Shown: in pieces, positions 2,999-10,079 of the stretch
Layout of the letters: each line of letters starts with the position of its first letter
Position numbering within the stretch: the stretch's first letter is position 1
From: Candidatus Omnitrophota bacterium
Lineage (GTDB): Bacteria > Omnitrophota > Gorgyraeia > B26-G9
Assembly (NCBI GenBank): GCA_018817165.1
Contig: JAHITY010000023.1
Location: 1-57,648, forward strand
Length of the DNA stretch: 57,648 nt
Direction: 5' to 3'
Program-made: the position numbers and the translations under genes
The notes under the pieces: model-generated
What the model was told of the DNA's origin: nothing
The model's input: the letters and a program-made list of their open reading frames with translations, nothing else
Database searches by the model: none

Positions 2999-3028
2999 TT
3001 GACAAACTAAACAGACTAATTATACAAT
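2999..3028 (+). promoter_or_regulatory. Sigma70-type promoter of the diguanylate cyclase gene
   Basis: TTGACA-18 nt-TACAAT. The -10 overlaps the first ATG, so the real start is probably ATG 3036. Confidence 0.55.
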
Positions 3029-4220
3029 GAACTCTATGAAAAAACGAGAAACCCCAAAAAACCTAGAAGACCGGCATCACGCTGAGCTGCTGATGCTCTA
3101 CGAAATCAGCATGGCAATGAGTTCCACGCTCCGACTTGATGAGATCCTTTACATTATTCTTACCAGCGTTACCTCTGGAGAAGGCCTGGGCTTTAACCGC
3201 GCCATGGTTTTTCTGGTTAATGAAAAAGATAATATTCTTGAAGGCCGCATGGGAATTGGCCCGGATTCAGAAGCTGATGCCAAAAATATCTGGGAGTTCA
3301 TCGCCGCAACCCATAAAACTCTTGATGAGCTGCTCAATGATTATAAACAATTCGGCCGCAAACAAGATTCGCTACTTAATAATAATGTTAAAAACATTAA
3401 ACTGCCCATAAACGAAAATTCAGGAATCCTGGCTCAAACAGTACTACAGCAAAAGACCTTTGAAATACTCGATTCTGAGTCAAGAAAACAAGTTGACAAA
3501 AAAGACCCGCTGATATCATTGTTCAATATGGATTATTGCTTAAGCATTCCTTTGATGGCCAATGATAAAGTACTGGGAGTTATGCTGGTAGATAATTTCT
3601 TTTCTACCAAAGTTATTACAAAAGATGATCTTTGGAAACTGACGATGTTTGCCAATAATGCGGGTCTGGCAATCGGCAATTCTCAGGAATTTGAAAAAAC
3701 TCTGATCCTTTCCAATACCGATCGTTTAACCGGGCTTTGGAACTATGGTTATTTCCAGCATCAATTAGCAGAGGAGGTTAAAAGAGCTACTCGCTTTAAC
3801 CGTCATCTTAGTTTGTTGATGATTGATATTGATCTTTTTAAGAAATTCAATGATACTTTGGGACATATTGCCGGAGATAGATTATTGCAGGAAATATCAG
3901 ATATTATTAAAGAATCATGCCGAGAAGTTGATTTGGTTGCCCGCTACGGTGGTGAAGAATTTGCAGTTATCCTACCAGAAACTTTTAAAGAAAAAGCCTA
4001 TTCATCGGCAGAAAGAATCCGAAAACTAACTGCTGCTCATCCCTGTCATTATAAGGAAGGCCAACCTTCAAAAAGAATAACAATTAGTATTGGAGTAGCA
4101 AGTTTTCCTCAGGATGCCTCCAACAAAGAAGATCTAATCGCCTTTGCGGACAAAGCACTGTATGTGGCCAAAGAAACCGGACGCAATCGGGTATGCATGT
4201 TCAGTAAAGATTTTATCTGA
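3027..4220 (+). CDS. GAF-sensor diguanylate cyclase
   Basis: GAF domain, then TDRLTGLWN, DIDLFKKFND and RYGGEEF with an RxxD I-site (REVD). Start may be 3036. Confidence 0.92.
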   Translation: MNSMKKRETPKNLEDRHHAELLMLYEISMAMSSTLRLDEILYIILTSVTSGEGLGFNRAMVFLVNEKDNILEGRMGIGPDSEADAKNIWEFIAATHKTLDELLNDYKQFGRKQDSLLNNNVKNIKLPINENSGILAQTVLQQKTFEILDSESRKQVDKKDPLISLFNMDYCLSIPLMANDKVLGVMLVDNFFSTKVITKDDLWKLTMFANNAGLAIGNSQEFEKTLILSNTDRLTGLWNYGYFQHQLAEEVKRATRFNRHLSLLMIDIDLFKKFNDTLGHIAGDRLLQEISDIIKESCREVDLVARYGGEEFAVILPETFKEKAYSSAERIRKLTAAHPCHYKEGQPSKRITISIGVASFPQDASNKEDLIAFADKALYVAKETGRNRVCMFSKDFI

Positions 4221-4247: not shown

Positions 4248-7200
4248 TTAGCCTAAAACTTCTTCGGGAATAAGCTCTTCTTTGGTCTTGTTCCCATCTT
4301 TAAACTCACTAAATTTCACGCTAACCAATCGAGAAATACCCGGCTGTTCCATTGTCACTCCATACATAACATCAGCCATAGCAATCGTCTTTTTATTATG
4401 AGTAATGATAATGAATTGCGAACTTTTTAAGAATTCCTGCAAAACCCGGGTAAACCGGTCAATGTTTGATTCATCCAAAGGCGCGTCCATTTCATCAAGC
4501 ACGCAAAAAGGTGTAGGCTTGATCTTAAAAATAGCAAACAATAAAGCAATCGCGGTTAGAGTCTTTTCCCCACCGGAAAGTAAAGTAATGCTTTGCAGTC
4601 TTTTCCCCGGAGGGCGGACAACTATCTCCACTCCGCACTCTAAAACATCTTTGCCTTCTGTGAGCAGCAGCTGAGCATCTCCACCGCTGAATAAGAGTTT
4701 AAAATATTCCCGAAACGCTATTTTTGATTTTTCAAAAGTTTCCAAAAAAAGCGCCTTTGTTGTCCGATTTATTTTTTGAATTGCCTGCATCAAAGTTTGT
4801 TTAGCCGTCAAGAGATCATCACACTGAGTCTTTAAAAAATCAGCTCTTTCTCTTAATTCCTGTTCCTCTTCAACTGCTGCTAAATTAACCGCGCCGATCC
4901 GATCGATTTTACCTTTTAAAGCATCGATCAGCTCTTTTTGCGTATTCCAATCGATATCTTCCGGCAGTTCAATCTCAAGCGTATCCAGTTCCTGCTTATA
5001 AGCCTGCCGCATGGAATTAATCAAGGACTCTATCTTAAAGTTCAGCTCAACTTTTTTAACATCAATATCGCGGATCCGGTTACGAGTAAAATTCAAACGA
5101 TTTTCTTTTTCTTTGATCTTATTCTGAATCTCTTCAAAGCGGGTTAATAATTCGCTGCGTTTTTCTTTAAATTCTTCTAAAGATCCGCCAATTTCTTCTT
5201 TTTCCGATTCTAAAACCAGTGTAGCTGTATTCAATTCGCTTACCTGGATAGTCAGCGCGTCAATCCGCTTAATACTATCCTCTCGATAACGGATAAATTC
5301 TTCTAAATTCTGGCTTAATTCCTTTTTATTAGTATTCAGCAAAGAAAAACTTTCATTTAAAGCTGATTCCTGATCATTCAGCAGAGAAAATTCGGTTTTC
5401 ATTTCCGCGATAATTACCATAAGCTCTTCGCGTTCTTTATTTTTTATCGCGATCAATTCCTGATCAGCCGTAATGGCTTGGTCATTAGTGACTGTTTCCT
5501 GATCAACAATCGCCAGTCTTTGTTTTTTCTCGGTCTCTTTAGTCTCAAGATCTTGGAGGTCAAGCGCGGTTTCTTCAATTTCCAAATCAACCAAAACAAG
5601 CTCATCGACTAATTTTTTTCTATTTGTTTCAATGCTTATTTTTTCAGAATCGCGATTCGCCAAACTAATTTTTTCTTCATGCAGAGCATGACTCAACTGG
5701 GTAAATTCAGTTTCAACATACTGCAGCTGTTCGGCTTTATTATCAATCTCATGTTTATATTTAATAACATCCTGCTCAAGCTCAATACTTTCTTCTTTAA
5801 GCTGACGCATTTTTGCTTTTTGCGAAAACAATCCAGTAGCCTGATCAGCCAAAGGCCGGCTGATTAAACCTACCGGCGAATGGACTTCACCGTTTAAACT
5901 TACCAAGGTTTGCGCTAAAACAAACTCTGTCTCAGGCAGTTTTTCTTCGATACCAATCATCTTATTTTCCGTTTTTTCCGGCACAACAATCACAGAATTT
6001 TCATTACCATTAAAATCAATTTCGCGATTTGGATTATTCGGGTCGATTGTCCAGTGACCATCAACTACTAATTTATAAATATAACGCCCGGGCTCGAGAT
6101 TTAAAGCTTTTTGCCAAAGATTATTCTCTTTTTTCTCAAGATCGCTGTCTACTAAAGCATCCCATTGATTAAAATCACCAACGATTTTTACCTGATTAGC
6201 ATTTTCACTGCTAAACGAGAAAATAAATTCATTTGCTAGCGCAGTTTGCTCAACCGCCGGCTCAACAATATCCCGCGTTTCAGCTTGCAGCTGATCATCA
6301 AAAATATTTTGCTCTAAAATAAAACTGTTCTTAAGCAAATAAGACAAAACTTTTTTATATTGCTCATCACAGCTAATTACTTCTAAAAAGCTCTTAGCAT
6401 TTTCTACCTGCGCCTGTTGCTGAATAATCTGAGGGATTGAATCAAGAGTAATAAAGCGGATTCTGCCAATATTATGCTCCGCGAGAAAACTTCTTAGTCT
6501 TAAAGCCACAGCGCGACTATCGACCACCACTGCCTGAAGATATTCCGACAAAGCGGTTTCCACACAGACTTCATAACCCGGCTTTACTTCCATTAGATTT
6601 ACCAATACATCATGCACTCCGGCAAAAGTCTCAGGATAATTATCTTTTTGCAGCATAAAAGATTTTACCGCGCTGGAAAACCATTCATATTCTTTGTTTA
6701 ATTTTTCCAGCACTTCCAGCTGGGATTTACAGCCCACCAAAGCTTGACGGCTGTTCTGAATACTTATTTCCAATTCTTTAATTTGGGCATTCAGCTGCTC
6801 ATAATTAAGTTTAAGATTCTGAGCATCGCTTTCTTCCTTATTAACTTTACCTCTAAGATTTTCCACTTCCGCTATTTTGCTGACTAATTCCGCATTGATC
6901 TTAGCATATTCCTGGCTAGTCTTTTCTTTTTCCTGATTAAGTCTTAATAATCGGGCATTAGCATTACTAATGTTCGCGGAAAGCTTGGCTAATTCATTTT
7001 TAATCTGCGCGTGTTCACTGAGCAGTTTAACCGCAATAACTCTGCTTTCCTCCGCGGATTTCTGAATGATTTTAATTTGATTTTCGATTTCAATAATTGA
7101 AGCCTGACGCGAATTAAGATTAAATTCTTTTTCATTTTTTTCGTCTGAAAAAGCGGATATCCGTGCCTGGAGCTGATCGATTTGGGCCTGAAGTTCTTTA

Positions 7201-8195
7201 ATCTTTTTTTCAGCGTTTTCAATATCCCGATTATAATCCTTAACTCTTTGGCTAAATTCCTCGATGCGCTCATTATTTAATTCCACAGAATGAATATTCT
7301 GTTCAATCTGAGAAACCGTGCGGACAAATTGATTGTTTAAATGGCTATAATTATGTTCCACTTCTGAAAGCGTTGTTTTTAAAACCCCGAACTCTTCTGA
7401 CAAAACGCCCAGATCACTTTCCATTTCAGTTTGTTCCTGATGAAAACCCGTTTCTTCCTGATTCAGCTGATCTTTTGTGCCTTTAAGCTGCTGATATTGG
7501 AAATATATATACTGCGTATCGAGAGTTTTAAGTTCCCCAAAATTTTCCTGAAAACGACGCGCTTTACTTACCTGACGGGCAATTGAATTTAACTGCCGAT
7601 TTACCTCAACCACAATATCATTTACCCGCAAAAGATTTTCTTCAGTTGCCTGAAGTTTTCGCATGGCTTCATTTTTTTGTTTTTTATAACGAGTAATTCC
7701 ACTGGCTTCTTCAAAAACAATACGTCTTTCTTCAGGCTTAGAACTAATGATCGCGTCAATTCTTCCCTGTTCCAGCAAAGAATATGATTCCGTACCAATA
7801 CCAGTACCCATTAATAATTCAGTTATGTCTCTTAATCTAACCGGAGTTTTATTTAAAAGATATTCACTTTCTCCTGAGCGATATAATCTGCGGGTAATCG
7901 TTACTTCATCATAATCAATCGGCAGAACTCTTTCTTCATTAGATAAGGTCAGAGAAACTTCTGACATATTTACCGGAGGACGCGTCTCAGTTCCATTAAA
8001 AATAACATCTTCCATTTTCGCGCCGCGCATCGATTTTGCGCTTTGCTCACCTAAAACCCATTTAATCGCGTCGGAAATATTACTTTTTCCTGTTCCATTG
8101 GGTCCAACAATCGCGGTTACGCCTGGTTCGAAAATAAGAGAAGTTTTATCAACAAAGGATTTGAATCCGTAGAGTTCTAGCTTTTTAAAATACAT
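4248..8195 (-). CDS. smc: Chromosome segregation protein SMC with a glycogen-binding domain inserted in the hinge
   Basis: GFKSF, Walker A GPNGTGKSN, coiled coils, LSGGE signature, Walker B/D-loop LDEMDAPLD; 1315 aa. Confidence 0.96.
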   Translation of the reverse strand: MYFKKLELYGFKSFVDKTSLIFEPGVTAIVGPNGTGKSNISDAIKWVLGEQSAKSMRGAKMEDVIFNGTETRPPVNMSEVSLTLSNEERVLPIDYDEVTITRRLYRSGESEYLLNKTPVRLRDITELLMGTGIGTESYSLLEQGRIDAIISSKPEERRIVFEEASGITRYKKQKNEAMRKLQATEENLLRVNDIVVEVNRQLNSIARQVSKARRFQENFGELKTLDTQYIYFQYQQLKGTKDQLNQEETGFHQEQTEMESDLGVLSEEFGVLKTTLSEVEHNYSHLNNQFVRTVSQIEQNIHSVELNNERIEEFSQRVKDYNRDIENAEKKIKELQAQIDQLQARISAFSDEKNEKEFNLNSRQASIIEIENQIKIIQKSAEESRVIAVKLLSEHAQIKNELAKLSANISNANARLLRLNQEKEKTSQEYAKINAELVSKIAEVENLRGKVNKEESDAQNLKLNYEQLNAQIKELEISIQNSRQALVGCKSQLEVLEKLNKEYEWFSSAVKSFMLQKDNYPETFAGVHDVLVNLMEVKPGYEVCVETALSEYLQAVVVDSRAVALRLRSFLAEHNIGRIRFITLDSIPQIIQQQAQVENAKSFLEVISCDEQYKKVLSYLLKNSFILEQNIFDDQLQAETRDIVEPAVEQTALANEFIFSFSSENANQVKIVGDFNQWDALVDSDLEKKENNLWQKALNLEPGRYIYKLVVDGHWTIDPNNPNREIDFNGNENSVIVVPEKTENKMIGIEEKLPETEFVLAQTLVSLNGEVHSPVGLISRPLADQATGLFSQKAKMRQLKEESIELEQDVIKYKHEIDNKAEQLQYVETEFTQLSHALHEEKISLANRDSEKISIETNRKKLVDELVLVDLEIEETALDLQDLETKETEKKQRLAIVDQETVTNDQAITADQELIAIKNKEREELMVIIAEMKTEFSLLNDQESALNESFSLLNTNKKELSQNLEEFIRYREDSIKRIDALTIQVSELNTATLVLESEKEEIGGSLEEFKEKRSELLTRFEEIQNKIKEKENRLNFTRNRIRDIDVKKVELNFKIESLINSMRQAYKQELDTLEIELPEDIDWNTQKELIDALKGKIDRIGAVNLAAVEEEQELRERADFLKTQCDDLLTAKQTLMQAIQKINRTTKALFLETFEKSKIAFREYFKLLFSGGDAQLLLTEGKDVLECGVEIVVRPPGKRLQSITLLSGGEKTLTAIALLFAIFKIKPTPFCVLDEMDAPLDESNIDRFTRVLQEFLKSSQFIIITHNKKTIAMADVMYGVTMEQPGISRLVSVKFSEFKDGNKTKEELIPEEVLG
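5982..6230 (-). other. AMPK-beta/CBM48 (E-set) glycogen-binding domain inside the SMC hinge (aa ~656-738)
   Basis: VKIVGDFNQW...W...L.LEPGRYIYKLVVDGHWTIDPNNP...D.NGNENSVIVV matches the AMPK1_CBM-like motif set. Confidence 0.88.
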
Positions 8196-8478: not shown

Positions 8479-9909
8479 TTACCAGTATCTTATTCTTACC
8501 CTGTAATCAATTGTTTTTTCTTCATCTTTTTTTAATTTTACGATAAATTTTATTGTACTGGCTTCGGTCTTAATGTATTTATCCGACGAATCAATAATCT
8601 GCCAGTCTCCGGGAATCGGTTCAATCACTTCTACTTGCACTTCTTTGTCTTTGTGATTGCGCAATTTTATCTGCCATTGCTGCTCAGTATCAAAGAGCTG
8701 GTTTGAATTTCTTGATAAGATTTTATAATCCAACTGCTTTCTTTCACCAATCACATCAAAAGCATCACCCATTTTAATTGTGATCTTTTCATTTTTTGGA
8801 GTATGCTCTATTTTATCTTCACCAATAAACTGCAGACTGCCTTGTTTATCTTTTTTATAAGCGCGAATAATTCCCGCCGGCAAAGGCATGCCCAGATTAT
8901 TTTGTTCCTTGTTTTCAATTTCTAAAAACACTCCGATTTTCTCTTTAGACATAACCTGCCCGGTATTCTGATTGCGATAATAATAATTCGCGCCATAATA
9001 AACCAGCTTTTCTTTGATCGGAATATCCCCGGCTTTTAATAATTCAATCTGCTTAGTCTGTTGATTTTTTAATGTTGAAGCCCGCTGCAAAGTATATAAA
9101 TGATATTCGAAAAACGACTCTTCGGCAAAAGCTTTATCTGATTCCATCATAATACTTGCTTTTGCCCGGCCAAGATGCCCGCTGGCTTCCTGGACTTGAT
9201 TAACATTCCCAGCCACGAGTTTTATCAAGGCATTCTTATAGGCTGCCCCGCTTTGATTATTGATTGTTACCCAGCCGTTTAAATCAGCGATTGAATTATC
9301 ATCATTGATCACGGCAATATAATCCGCTTTCCAGTTGATTCCCGTGGTTAGATATGATGCCTCAATATTCTGGGCTTTGGAATTATCGTTTTTCAGCATC
9401 CAGATCAAAGTTGGTTTGGCAATTAAATTTTCCGGTATTTCCGGTAAGATAACTCGGCCAGGAGGATTGATATGGATTTCATTATTGATTTTATATATAG
9501 GAGAGCCATTATTGCTTAATAATTCGGCAGCAAAGATCTCTTCTTTACCTGTATAATAATTCTTATCCAAGATCTTTACCTGTTTACCGACAAACTTATC
9601 TAAAAGCTTTTGGGAATTCAATAAATCATATTCATAATTCTGTTCCAGGACTGAGAGTTTGTCCGGAGAAGTCAATGATTTAATGCTCACGGTAACCGGC
9701 TGGATCTGACTGGCCACATCCATGAACTTTAGATAATTCTCCCCAATCCCCATTTTAATCTCGCGCAGATCTTTAACCAGCCCAAGATTATTATTGTAGA
9801 TCGTTATCGCGATCTGTTTCTGATCCTGCTCTGTGCTCGTATATTCTTTGGCCAAAGCAATGTTCGGTAATAATAAACATACTAAAAAAACAAAACTTAT
9901 TCTTTTCAT
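8479..9909 (-). CDS. DUF4139 domain exported protein
   Basis: Signal peptide; ITIYNNNLGLVKD, EQNYEYDL, YLTTGINWKADY and GMPLPAG.IR motifs. ATG 9909 has an RBS. Confidence 0.85.
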   Translation of the reverse strand: MKRISFVFLVCLLLPNIALAKEYTSTEQDQKQIAITIYNNNLGLVKDLREIKMGIGENYLKFMDVASQIQPVTVSIKSLTSPDKLSVLEQNYEYDLLNSQKLLDKFVGKQVKILDKNYYTGKEEIFAAELLSNNGSPIYKINNEIHINPPGRVILPEIPENLIAKPTLIWMLKNDNSKAQNIEASYLTTGINWKADYIAVINDDNSIADLNGWVTINNQSGAAYKNALIKLVAGNVNQVQEASGHLGRAKASIMMESDKAFAEESFFEYHLYTLQRASTLKNQQTKQIELLKAGDIPIKEKLVYYGANYYYRNQNTGQVMSKEKIGVFLEIENKEQNNLGMPLPAGIIRAYKKDKQGSLQFIGEDKIEHTPKNEKITIKMGDAFDVIGERKQLDYKILSRNSNQLFDTEQQWQIKLRNHKDKEVQVEVIEPIPGDWQIIDSSDKYIKTEASTIKFIVKLKKDEEKTIDYRVRIRYW

Positions 9910-10079
9910 TGTTACCCCCTTCAATGAGCACCTGACTTACGGAGTGTTTTTCACGACGTCAAGTCAGCCAGTGCGAATTAATGCAGAAATGGCTGCGGCC
10001 TAGCAGACACTTTCTGTATCCTTATTATTTAAATTTCAAAAATAGGCAATACTTCTAGAATTATTGCCTTTACCTTATA

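What the first reader, a model, noticed from the sequence alone, without database searches (positions are those of the whole stretch)
5982..6230. SMC carries a glycogen-binding (AMPK-beta/CBM48) domain inside its hinge
Seen: residues ~656-738 of an otherwise intact 1315-aa SMC read VKIVGDFNQW...LEPGRYIYKLVVDGHWTIDPNNP...NGNENSVIVV, with acidic linkers on both sides, between the two parts of the hinge. Established: these are AMPK1_CBM/CBM48 motifs; bacterial SMC is typically ~1180 aa with no such domain. Inference: the condensin may be tethered to, or regulated by, glycogen granules, linking carbon storage to chromosome organisation. I know of no description of this fusion.
Basis: partly seen in the sequence, partly recalled or inferred. 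Interest (0 to 1): 0.82.

Follow-up and report, generated by a model that had tools for sequence, protein, structure and literature searches.

The report
Condensin hinge carrying a glycogen-binding domain
The only chromosome-condensing SMC protein of this uncultured groundwater bacterium has a well-conserved glycogen-binding module looped out of its hinge on two floppy linkers, copied from a neighbouring-family ParA ATPase, which suggests that these bacteria physically link their chromosome machinery to their sugar stores.

Summary
Window 4248-8195 (-) encodes an intact 1315-aa SMC. Residues 655-741 match Pfam AMPK1_CBM (E 1.4e-12) and CBM_48, both above their cut-offs. The domain sits between hinge residues 525-627 and the last hinge strands (763-790), on two acidic, unconserved linkers.

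It is not a misassembly. The same insertion at the same site occurs in 15 of 16 genomes of one Omnitrophota family, and in none of about 400 other genomes of the phylum searched.

A domain tree places the insert with the C-terminal CBM of that family's own ParA-CBM ATPase, which is the likely donor.

The AMPK glycogen-contact residues are kept: W678, K708, G730 and N733 in 19 of 19 distinct sequences, W715 in 18 of 19. The domain is as conserved as the hinge itself. The modelled fold matches the AMPK beta1 glycogen-binding domain (TM 0.89).

The genome encodes GlgA, GlgB, a GH57 branching enzyme, glycogen phosphorylase, ScpA/ScpB and a separate canonical ParAB.

My best reading is a dimeric hinge tip with two alpha-glucan-binding modules that tethers chromosome-bound condensin to glycogen particles. 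Binding itself is untested.

I found no description of the fusion in the literature searched. I rate it a new variant of a known kind.

The parts
4248..8195 (-). smc gene, 1315 aa. It is the only SMC-hinge gene in the genome.
7686..8195 (-). N-terminal half of the ATPase head (residues 1-170), with Walker A at residue 31.
   Evidence: Mean pairwise identity is 93.5% among 9 fused SMCs.
6315..6623 (-). Hinge, N-terminal part (residues 525-627), matching Pfam SMC_hinge positions 2-106 of 116.
   Evidence: Model pLDDT is about 90. Foldseek matches the T. maritima hinge 1gxj with TMt 0.67.
6234..6305 (-). Linker 1 (residues 631-654). It is acidic, predicted disordered, and variable in length (11-27 aa) among relatives.
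   Evidence: pLDDT below 50; 14.6% mean identity
5973..6233 (-). AMPK1_CBM/CBM48 beta-sandwich (residues 655-741). Residues W678, K708, W715, G730 and N733 align with AMPK beta1 W100, K126, W133, G147 and N150.
5910..5972 (-). Linker 2 (residues 742-762). It is acidic, predicted disordered, and 15-26 aa long among relatives.
5826..5909 (-). Hinge, C-terminal strands (residues 763-790). They are part of the predicted hinge-hinge interface.
4326..4775 (-). C-terminal half of the ATPase head (residues 1141-1290), with the signature motif at 1206 and Walker B at 1232.

Best explanation
This is the housekeeping Smc of an Smc-ScpAB condensin. Near the base of one Omnitrophota family, a surface loop of its hinge received a copy of the C-terminal glycogen-binding module (AMPK1_CBM/CBM48) of that lineage's ParA-CBM ATPase. 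The module folds independently and hangs on two flexible acidic linkers of roughly 20 residues. It lies outside the hinge dimer interface, so an SMC dimer carries two such modules at the tip of its arms, far from the DNA-clamping heads. Shown here: the architecture, its conservation, the origin of the domain, the retention of sugar-contact residues, and the presence of glycogen metabolism. Inferred: the modules bind alpha-1,4/1,6-glucan (glycogen), so that chromosome-loaded condensin is tethered to glycogen particles. The most likely consequence is that glycogen particles stay attached to, and are inherited with, the nucleoid. This would be a tether between storage granule and nucleoid that works alongside ParA-CBM. 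A regulatory effect of glycogen load on hinge function is a possible second consequence.
For: 1. The domain match is above Pfam cut-offs. The best PDB sequence hit is the AMPK beta1 glycogen-binding domain 1z0m (E 5.5e-7). The modelled insert superposes on 1z0m_C with TMt 0.89 and rmsd 1.6 A over 85 columns.

2. Residues aligned to AMPK beta1 W100, K126 and W133, whose mutation abolishes or weakens glycogen binding (review PMC6274970, passages only), are conserved. W is kept in 19 of 19 distinct fused SMC inserts, K in 19 of 19, and the second W in 18 of 19. The G147 and N150 equivalents are kept in 19 of 19.

3. Selection is purifying. The CBM has 53% mean pairwise identity and no indels (87 aa in 9 of 9). 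The hinge has 58% and 51.5%. The linkers have 12-15% and variable lengths.

4. The fused form is in 15 of 16 family-f1 genomes, spanning 12 of 13 genera. The SMC tree does not exclude a single gain.

5. In a tree of 53 CBM domains, a branch with support 98/90 unites the 13 SMC inserts with the 4 f1 ParA-CBM domains. It excludes 20 ParA-CBMs of other families and 16 stand-alone CBMs.

6. The genome has glgA (552 bits), GH13 glgB (926 bits), glycogen phosphorylase (1120 bits) and a GH57 branching enzyme. The GH57 gene lies about 5 kb downstream of the ParA-CBM gene.

7. In 7 genomes of another class of the phylum, a stand-alone AMPK1_CBM gene lies directly beside glgA on the same strand (rows printed). 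This ties the domain family to glycogen in this phylum.

8. The condensin looks complete and functional. There is a single SMC, ScpA and ScpB are present, and the ATPase motifs are intact. The hinge homodimer is predicted with ipSAE 0.52 against a best control of 0.00. That mark was reached by 20 of 30 proteins solved as pairs of one chain and 1 of 23 solved as single chains. Runs agree in at least 60% of contacts and partner pLDDT is at least 71. No interface residue lies in the CBM. This is a textbook pair, so the pass may come from likeness to solved hinges.

9. The CBM core is net acidic (mean -4.1, range -9 to +1, 19 sequences), which argues against DNA as its ligand.
Against: No binding experiment exists, and no expression data either. 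The conserved W/K/W/G/N residues are also hallmarks of the Pfam family, so part of their conservation may reflect the fold rather than the ligand. One lineage (G404) has A in place of the second tryptophan. The SMC inserts sit on long branches (about 1.0-1.3 changes per column for several) compared with the ParA-CBM domains; this may mean relaxed or altered specificity. One family member (G330) does without the insert, so it is dispensable in at least one lineage. Co-occurrence with glycogen synthesis cannot discriminate: glgA is in 369 of 401 genomes, including families that have no AMPK1_CBM. No glycogen gene lies next to smc in the window. A recent preprint reads the donor ParA-CBM as an immune carbohydrate sensor (10.64898/2026.10.19.760177, passages only). 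The consequence I propose, granule inheritance, is pure inference.
Confidence: 0.55

Rival explanations
1. The inserted beta-sandwich no longer binds glucan, or does not only bind glucan. Instead it serves as a protein-docking module that recruits a partner to the hinge. Candidates are a component of the ParA-CBM system or another CBM. This would parallel the AMPK beta CBM, which also packs against the kinase domain.
For: The SMC inserts lie on long branches relative to the donor ParA-CBM domains. G404 lost one stacking tryptophan. The review PMC6274970 (passages) reports that the AMPK beta1 region 68-123 binds glycogen debranching enzyme independently of glycogen-binding residues. The ParA-CBM cluster encodes two proteins that share an N-terminal peptide and could be partners.
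Against: All five sugar-contact positions are kept in 18 of 19 distinct sequences, down to 38% identity. No candidate partner was identified or tested. The domain is tethered by disordered linkers and does not pack on the hinge.
Confidence: 0.2
2. The module does bind glycogen, but its role is regulatory rather than tethering. Glycogen load at the hinge would modulate hinge opening, DNA binding or ATPase cycling, and so couple chromosome compaction to carbon status. This would parallel the inhibition of AMPK by glycogen.
For: The evidence for glucan binding is the same as in the best explanation. The insert emerges right next to the predicted hinge-hinge interface: interface residues include fragment positions 133 and 262, which are protein residues 632 and 761, the insert boundaries. 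Glycogen inhibits AMPK through its CBM (abstract of PMC2642990 as listed; passages of PMC6274970).
Against: The long disordered linkers, with variable length and sequence, are a poor means of transmitting an allosteric signal. Nothing here distinguishes regulation from tethering.
Confidence: 0.15
3. The CBM is a carbohydrate sensor in an anti-phage context, as proposed for ParA-CBM systems, and the SMC has been drawn into defence.
For: Preprint 10.64898/2026.10.19.760177 (passages) proposes an immune role for ParA-CBM. It describes a variant with a second inactive ParA and an inactive REase, which resembles the C87 cluster.
Against: This SMC is the only SMC in the genome and is accompanied by ScpAB, so it is the housekeeping condensin. 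ParA-CBM was found in 13 families among the 40 loci examined, and its CBM tree groups by family. AMPK1_CBM is in 346 of 401 genomes. This looks like vertical, near-universal inheritance, unlike typical defence islands. The preprint does not mention SMC (0 occurrences).
Confidence: 0.05
4. The insertion is an assembly chimera or a neutral passenger without function.
For: One family member (G330) lacks it.
Against: The same site carries the insert in 15 of 16 family genomes from separate assemblies. Eight further protein clusters appear in public databases. Logan contigs bridge both junctions with 0 differences (the runs may be the source sample). The CBM is conserved at 53% with no indels, while its linkers drift to 12-15%.
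Confidence: 0.03

Closest known systems
Bacterial Smc-ScpAB condensin (for example B. subtilis or T. maritima Smc)
   Same: The two head halves have intact ATPase motifs. The arms are of conserved length. The hinge fold matches 1gxj and 5h69. A hinge homodimer is predicted. ScpA and ScpB are in the genome.
   Different: A segment of about 130 residues (linker, CBM, linker) replaces a 17-22-residue hinge loop. The C-terminal glycine motif of the hinge is degenerate, but that holds for this class generally.
AMPK beta-subunit carbohydrate-binding module (PDB 1z0m/1z0n; Pfam AMPK1_CBM, CAZy CBM48)
   Same: The fold agrees (TMt 0.89, rmsd 1.6 A) at about 30% identity, and the glycogen-contact residues are conserved.
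   Different: The host protein is an SMC ATPase, not a kinase scaffold. The domain is an internal insertion on two linkers rather than part of a heterotrimer core. Binding has not been measured.
ParA-CBM ATPases (described in preprint 10.64898/2026.10.19.760177; own copy at G000:C87:44498-45604)
   Same: They carry the same CBM lineage. The own-genome copy is the best in-genome match to the insert (48% identity), and the f1 ParA-CBMs group with the SMC inserts. Both hosts are nucleoid-associated ATPases (for ParA, from general knowledge).
   Different: In ParA the CBM is C-terminal; here it is internal to a hinge. ParA-CBM is widespread in the phylum, whereas SMC-CBM is confined to one family.
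Plant PROTEIN TARGETING TO STARCH (PTST) proteins: coiled coil plus CBM48 (PMC4339375, seen as search listing and start of abstract only)
   Same: A long coiled-coil protein carries a CBM48-type module and is used to bring a partner to an alpha-glucan granule.
   Different: They are unrelated proteins with no ATPase and no DNA role. The resemblance is one of design only.
Hinge-docking and granule-nucleoid tethers recalled from memory, not checked here: the MukB hinge binding topoisomerase IV ParC, and PhaM linking PHB granules to the nucleoid
   Same: The first uses an SMC hinge as a docking platform. The second attaches a storage granule to the nucleoid for inheritance.
   Different: Neither uses a carbohydrate-binding module, and neither is an insertion in a canonical Smc hinge.

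Membership tests
SMC (Smc-ScpAB type) | Split ABC-type ATPase head with Walker A, signature motif and Walker B | tested here: met
   SMC_N matches over 3-1288 at E 4.2e-71. The motifs are at residues 31, 1206 and 1232.
SMC (Smc-ScpAB type) | SMC hinge domain between the two arm halves | tested here: met
   PF06470 matches at E 8.1e-23. Foldseek matches 1gxj, 5h69 and 7dg5 with probability 1.00.
SMC (Smc-ScpAB type) | Hinge-mediated dimerisation | tested here: inconclusive
   A prediction only: ipSAE 0.52 against a best control of 0.00. The mark was reached by 20 of 30 proteins solved as pairs of one chain and 1 of 23 solved as single chains. The pass may reflect likeness to solved hinges.
SMC (Smc-ScpAB type) | Long antiparallel coiled-coil arms | not tested
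   No coiled-coil predictor was run. The segments 171-505 and 791-1140 have conserved length (335 and about 350 aa) in 9 fused SMCs, and the model ends are helical.
SMC (Smc-ScpAB type) | Kleisin ScpA and ScpB partners encoded in the genome | tested here: met
   PF02616 scores 137 bits and PF04079 scores 189 bits. The two genes are adjacent on C126.
AMPK1_CBM / CBM48 | Profile match above the curated cut-off | tested here: met
   AMPK1_CBM scores 48.1 bits (cut-off 26.8) and CBM_48 scores 26.2 bits (cut-off 22.4).
AMPK1_CBM / CBM48 | Beta-sandwich fold like the AMPK beta glycogen-binding domain | tested here: met
   Match to 1z0m_C with TMt 0.89 and rmsd 1.6 A. pLDDT is about 80 over the domain.
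AMPK1_CBM / CBM48 | Glucan-contact residues (AMPK beta1 W100, K126, W133; also G147 and N150, the last recalled) | tested here: met
   By alignment, these are W678, K708, W715, G730 and N733. They are kept in 19/19, 19/19, 18/19, 19/19 and 19/19 distinct sequences.
AMPK1_CBM / CBM48 | Binding of glycogen or other alpha-glucan | not testable with these tools
   This needs a pull-down, ITC or co-sedimentation with point mutants.

The most novel reading that the evidence does not exclude
In this Omnitrophota family, glycogen particles are integrated into chromosome cell biology. Two nucleoid ATPases, an orphan ParA and the condensin Smc, carry the same glycogen-binding module. Storage granules and chromosomes would then be organised and partitioned together, with the SMC hinge tip anchored on glycogen. 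This would be the first SMC complex physically tethered to a storage polymer, and a ParA-type positioning system for glycogen.
Probability: 0.35. Interest if true: 0.8.

Novelty: new variant of a known kind. Interest (0 to 1): 0.62.

Why it matters
SMC hinges are known as dimerisation and DNA- or protein-contact sites. A dedicated polysaccharide-binding module built into a hinge, and kept by purifying selection across a bacterial family, would be a new way to localise or regulate a condensin. Recent work shows that glycogen forms condensates in E. coli that displace the nucleoid and skew division (PMC12706056, abstract read). A lineage that bolts a glycogen-binding domain onto both a ParA and its Smc suggests that some bacteria actively manage that interplay. 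The idea can be tested with recombinant domains and point mutants even though the organisms are uncultured. It also offers a natural, modular hinge-insertion site for engineering SMCs.

Tried and rejected
Misassembly is rejected. The same insertion site is found in 15 of 16 family genomes. Logan contigs from runs X1 (record covering 5600-6681) and X2 (covering 5600-6800) bridge the insert DNA at 5910-6305 with 0 differences. Both runs may be the source sample, so this is not independent evidence.

Expression could not be assessed: no RNA holder was listed.

Co-occurrence with glycogen synthesis cannot discriminate. glgA is present at E<=1e-60 in 369 of 401 phylum genomes. Families without any AMPK1_CBM match still have it (f6 5/5, f9 3/3, f11 5/6). 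Family f18 lacks both (0/3 and 0/3).

I considered the idea that loss of the hinge glycine motif is specific to the fused family and linked to the insertion. It is rejected, because SMCs of other families of the class that lack the insert also have a degenerate motif.

DNA binding by the insert is unlikely, because the CBM core is net acidic.

The gene neighbourhood of smc in the window holds no glycogen genes. The neighbours are a HemN-like radical SAM protein, a TPR peptidase, a GAF-GGDEF protein, a DUF4139 protein and unknowns.

A search for fused SMCs outside this family gave the following. Among the best 150 of 6108 hits in 1.84 billion representatives, only one (P0016) is a fused SMC; it is identical over the CBM insert to the G403 family-f1 SMC. 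The rest are multi-CBM repeat proteins. Weaker fused forms below rank 150 would not have been seen.

Whether G330 lost the insert or branched off before it was gained is unresolved: the base of the SMC tree is a trichotomy.

Supplements of papers were closed and were not consulted. The supplementary tables of the ParA preprint may list ParA-CBM loci that bear on the donor system.

Full report
**1. What is there.** The window carries one long ORF at 4248..8195 on the minus strand, 1315 aa without stops.
- Pfam finds SMC_N spanning both ends (3-1288, E 4.2e-71).
- It finds SMC_hinge at 525-627, covering profile positions 2-106 of 116 (E 8.1e-23).
- Between that and the C-terminal arm it finds AMPK1_CBM at 664-741 (E 1.4e-12, 48.1 bits against a cut-off of 26.8) and CBM_48 at 655-719 (26.2 bits against 22.4).
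- The finding's coordinates 5982-6230 are residues 656-738.
- GC content and skew run smoothly through the insert.
- Walker A, the signature motif and Walker B are intact.
- This is the only SMC hinge in the 3.08-Mb genome, which is 93% complete.
- ScpA and ScpB are encoded side by side on another contig.

It is therefore the housekeeping condensin, not a spare paralogue.

**2. Anatomy of the insertion.** I aligned the protein with SMCs that lack the insert: two database SMCs and the SMC of a family member, G330.
- About 130 residues replace a loop of 17-22 residues. The loop lies just before the last hinge strands.
- An AlphaFold2 model of residues 500-810 has mean pLDDT 75.3. It gives a confident hinge (about 90), a confident beta-sandwich (about 80), and two segments below 50, which are protein residues 634-654 and 741-759.
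- Foldseek matches the hinge part to SMC hinges (T. maritima 1gxj, TMt 0.67). It matches the insert to the AMPK beta1 glycogen-binding domain 1z0m_C (TMt 0.89, rmsd 1.6 A, 30% identity).
- Both linkers are acidic.
- A two-copy prediction of the same fragment supports a hinge homodimer. The score was ipSAE 0.52 against a best control of 0.00. That mark was reached by 20 of 30 proteins solved as pairs of one chain and by 1 of 23 solved as single chains. Runs agree in at least 60% of contacts, and partner pLDDT is at least 71.
- The confident interface residues are protein residues 561-588, 616-632 and 761-781. None lies in the CBM.
- SMC hinge dimers have been solved, so this pass may only reflect that likeness.

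If the dimer forms, it displays two CBMs at the tip of the arms.

**3. Not an artefact, and where it occurs.**
- A word-indexed search of 5.8 billion proteins with residues 520-800 returned 10 proteins. Eight have the same SMC_N + hinge + AMPK1_CBM architecture, at 80% down to 38% identity. All of those that carry names come from Candidatus Omnitrophica/Omnitrophota MAGs. The other two are ordinary SMCs that match only the hinge.
- In 401 genomes sampled across the phylum, a match covering the whole hinge+CBM query occurred only in the own genome and in 3 of the 4 other members of its family, f1. The fourth, G330, matched in the hinge only.
- A denser sample of relatives settles the distribution. 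All 15 other f1 genomes have an SMC. Fourteen of them match contiguously across the insert, with insert segments of 109-142 aa. G330 has 17 residues at that site.
- The one genome of the sister family in the same order, and 8 genomes of other families, have no insert.
- An exhaustive HMMER scan of 1.84 billion cluster representatives gave 6108 hits. Among the best 150, only one is a fused SMC; the rest are proteins with tandem CBM repeats.
- Contigs made by a different assembler from two groundwater-metagenome runs bridge both junctions without a difference, but these runs may be the source sample.
- On an SMC tree built without the insert columns, family f1 is monophyletic (support 100). G330, G391 and a clade of 14 fused sequences (support 96) form an unresolved trichotomy. 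A single gain near the base of the family is compatible with the data, with either a slightly later gain or one loss explaining G330.

**4. Where the domain came from.**
- The genome has exactly two AMPK1_CBM matches. The second lies on contig C87 in a 368-aa protein whose N-terminal 250 residues are a ParA/MinD-type ATPase (AAA_31 E 3.1e-52, CbiA E 1.2e-20). Its C-terminus is the CBM (E 4.4e-16).
- This is not the chromosomal Soj. A canonical parA-parB pair sits on contig C67.
- Its CBM is the best in-genome match to the SMC insert (48% identity, 92 bits).
- AMPK1_CBM matches occur in 346 of 401 genomes of the phylum.
- In the 40 non-SMC loci I examined, all 24 frames of 348-586 aa are ParA-CBM fusions, from 13 families. 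The other 16 are stand-alone proteins of 97-160 aa.
- In a maximum-likelihood tree of 53 CBM domains, a branch with support 98/90 unites the 13 SMC inserts with the four f1 ParA-CBM domains. It excludes the other 20 ParA-CBMs and all 16 stand-alone CBMs. Elsewhere the ParA-CBM domains group by family.

The simplest reading is that the widespread, vertically inherited ParA-CBM donated a copy of its CBM to the SMC hinge in the ancestor of this family. One caveat applies: the loci in the tree were chosen as best matches to the Pfam model or to the insert, not at random.

**5. Does it still bind glucan?**
- The PDB sequence search aligns the insert to the AMPK beta1 CBM crystallised with cyclodextrin (1z0m/1z0n, E 5.5e-7). 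W678, K708 and W715 lie opposite W100, K126 and W133.
- A review (PMC6274970; I read only the passages returned by the search) states that W100G and K126Q abolish glycogen binding, and that W133L and G147R partly disrupt it. The role of N150 is from my recall.
- Across 19 distinct fused SMC inserts the counts are W 19/19, K 19/19, W 18/19 (A in G404), G 19/19 and N 19/19.
- The CBM is as conserved as the hinge: 53% against 58% and 51.5% mean pairwise identity, with no indels. The linkers have drifted to 12-15% identity with lengths of 11-27 and 15-26 residues.
- The CBM core is net acidic (mean -4.1), so DNA is an unlikely ligand.
- The substrate is available. The genome has GlgA, GH13 GlgB and glycogen phosphorylase, all far above cut-off. 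It also has a GH57 branching enzyme (GH57 + BE_C) about 5 kb downstream of the ParA-CBM gene, next to a DUF4912 protein.
- Comparing the printed rows, a stand-alone AMPK1_CBM gene lies directly beside glgA on the same strand in 7 genomes of another class of the phylum.

Against this, the phylum-wide co-occurrence test carries no information, because glgA is in 369 of 401 genomes, including families without any CBM. Nothing glycogen-related flanks smc in the window.

**6. Mechanism.**
- Shown: a complete Smc-ScpAB whose hinge carries, per monomer, one independently folded, selectively maintained CBM48-type module on flexible tethers. The module sits outside the predicted dimer interface and descends from a ParA-CBM.
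- Inferred with moderate confidence (about 0.65-0.7): the module binds glycogen.
- Inferred with lower confidence: the consequence. I commit to a physical tether. Condensin loaded on the chromosome would capture glycogen particles with a bivalent hinge tip, so that particles stay dispersed on the nucleoid and are inherited with it. This would complement the ParA-CBM, which as a ParA-type ATPase is expected (general knowledge) to use the nucleoid as a matrix.

The E. coli work showing that glycogen condenses at the old pole, displaces the nucleoid and skews division (PMC12706056, abstract) shows why a cell might manage this interaction. A regulatory role remains a live alternative, because the insert emerges at the edge of the hinge interface. 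The floppy, unconserved linkers argue against allostery.

**7. Known relatives and novelty.**
- Two full-text searches (SMC + hinge + CBM48; AMPK1_CBM + SMC) found no paper. A third search timed out.
- The 2023 Omnitrophota survey (PMC10066038) contains no occurrence of 'glycogen', 'SMC' or 'chromosome' in its main text.
- The donor architecture, ParA-CBM, is described in a preprint of October 2026. The preprint reads it as a possible immune carbohydrate sensor, and notes a variant with a second inactive ParA and an inactive REase, which resembles the C87 cluster. It does not mention SMC (I read passages only, and its supplements were not available).
- My data fit a housekeeping role better than a sporadic defence island in this phylum: near-universal presence and family-wise clustering of the domain tree. 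This was not tested further.
- Architecturally, the nearest design parallel is the plant PTST family (coiled coil + CBM48 that targets partners to starch; PMC4339375, listing only).

The SMC-CBM fusion is a new variant of a known kind, not a new kind of system.

**8. Verdict.** The scope is narrow: one family of uncultured groundwater bacteria. Interest 0.62. A specialist would be surprised by a polysaccharide-binding module in an SMC hinge, and by the ParA/SMC pairing. The hypothesis can be tested directly with recombinant protein.

Noticed in passing
G000:C87:44498-51848 (L076 8499-15849; L045): This gene cluster holds an orphan ParA-CBM ATPase (368 aa), a degenerate second ParA-like protein (305 aa), a 233-aa protein with no Pfam match, a Cu-oxidase_4 protein, a DUF4912 protein (623 aa) and a GH57 alpha-glucan branching enzyme. 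The 305-aa and DUF4912 proteins are the only two frames in the genome that share an N-terminal LGKGLEDIS-type peptide. From recall, this resembles the ParA-activating N-terminal peptide of ParB. The cluster may be a ParA-based glycogen-positioning system rather than the immune system proposed in a preprint, or in addition to it.
   Followed up: partly
For example G188:C116:934-2693, G110:C75:10223-11902, G048:C26:9133-10858, G022:C10:55994-57738, G134:C16:7727-9438, G140:C7:41215-42955, G106:C1:40934-42634: In 7 genomes of another Omnitrophota class, stand-alone AMPK1_CBM genes of about 100 aa lie directly beside glgA on the same strand. I saw this by comparing the printed rows.
   Followed up: no
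rows for G073, G161, G055, G230, G267, G137, G303 and G271 (those whose family is listed are f3): The glgA matches lie in open frames of about 1025-1054 aa, twice the usual length. This suggests a fused glycogen synthase in that family.
   Followed up: no
P0012-P0161: Many proteins carry 3-18 tandem CBM48-like repeats, for example P0012 (1812 aa, 18 matched stretches) and a large group of about 480 aa with 4 repeats. Their origin and function are unknown.
   Followed up: no
window 5826-5909, and L095-L098: The conserved C-terminal glycine motif of the SMC hinge is degenerate both in this family and in other families of the class. A hinge homodimer is still predicted.
   Followed up: partly
window 3027-4220 (+) and 8479-9924 (-): smc is flanked by a convergent GAF-GGDEF diguanylate cyclase and a DUF4139 protein that appears to start with a signal-peptide-like N-terminus. 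No link to the finding is apparent.
   Followed up: no
L086 (G404:C10): This is the one fused SMC whose CBM has alanine instead of the second stacking tryptophan (the W715 equivalent). It also has E in the GDFNxW motif. Glucan binding may be weakened in that lineage.
   Followed up: no
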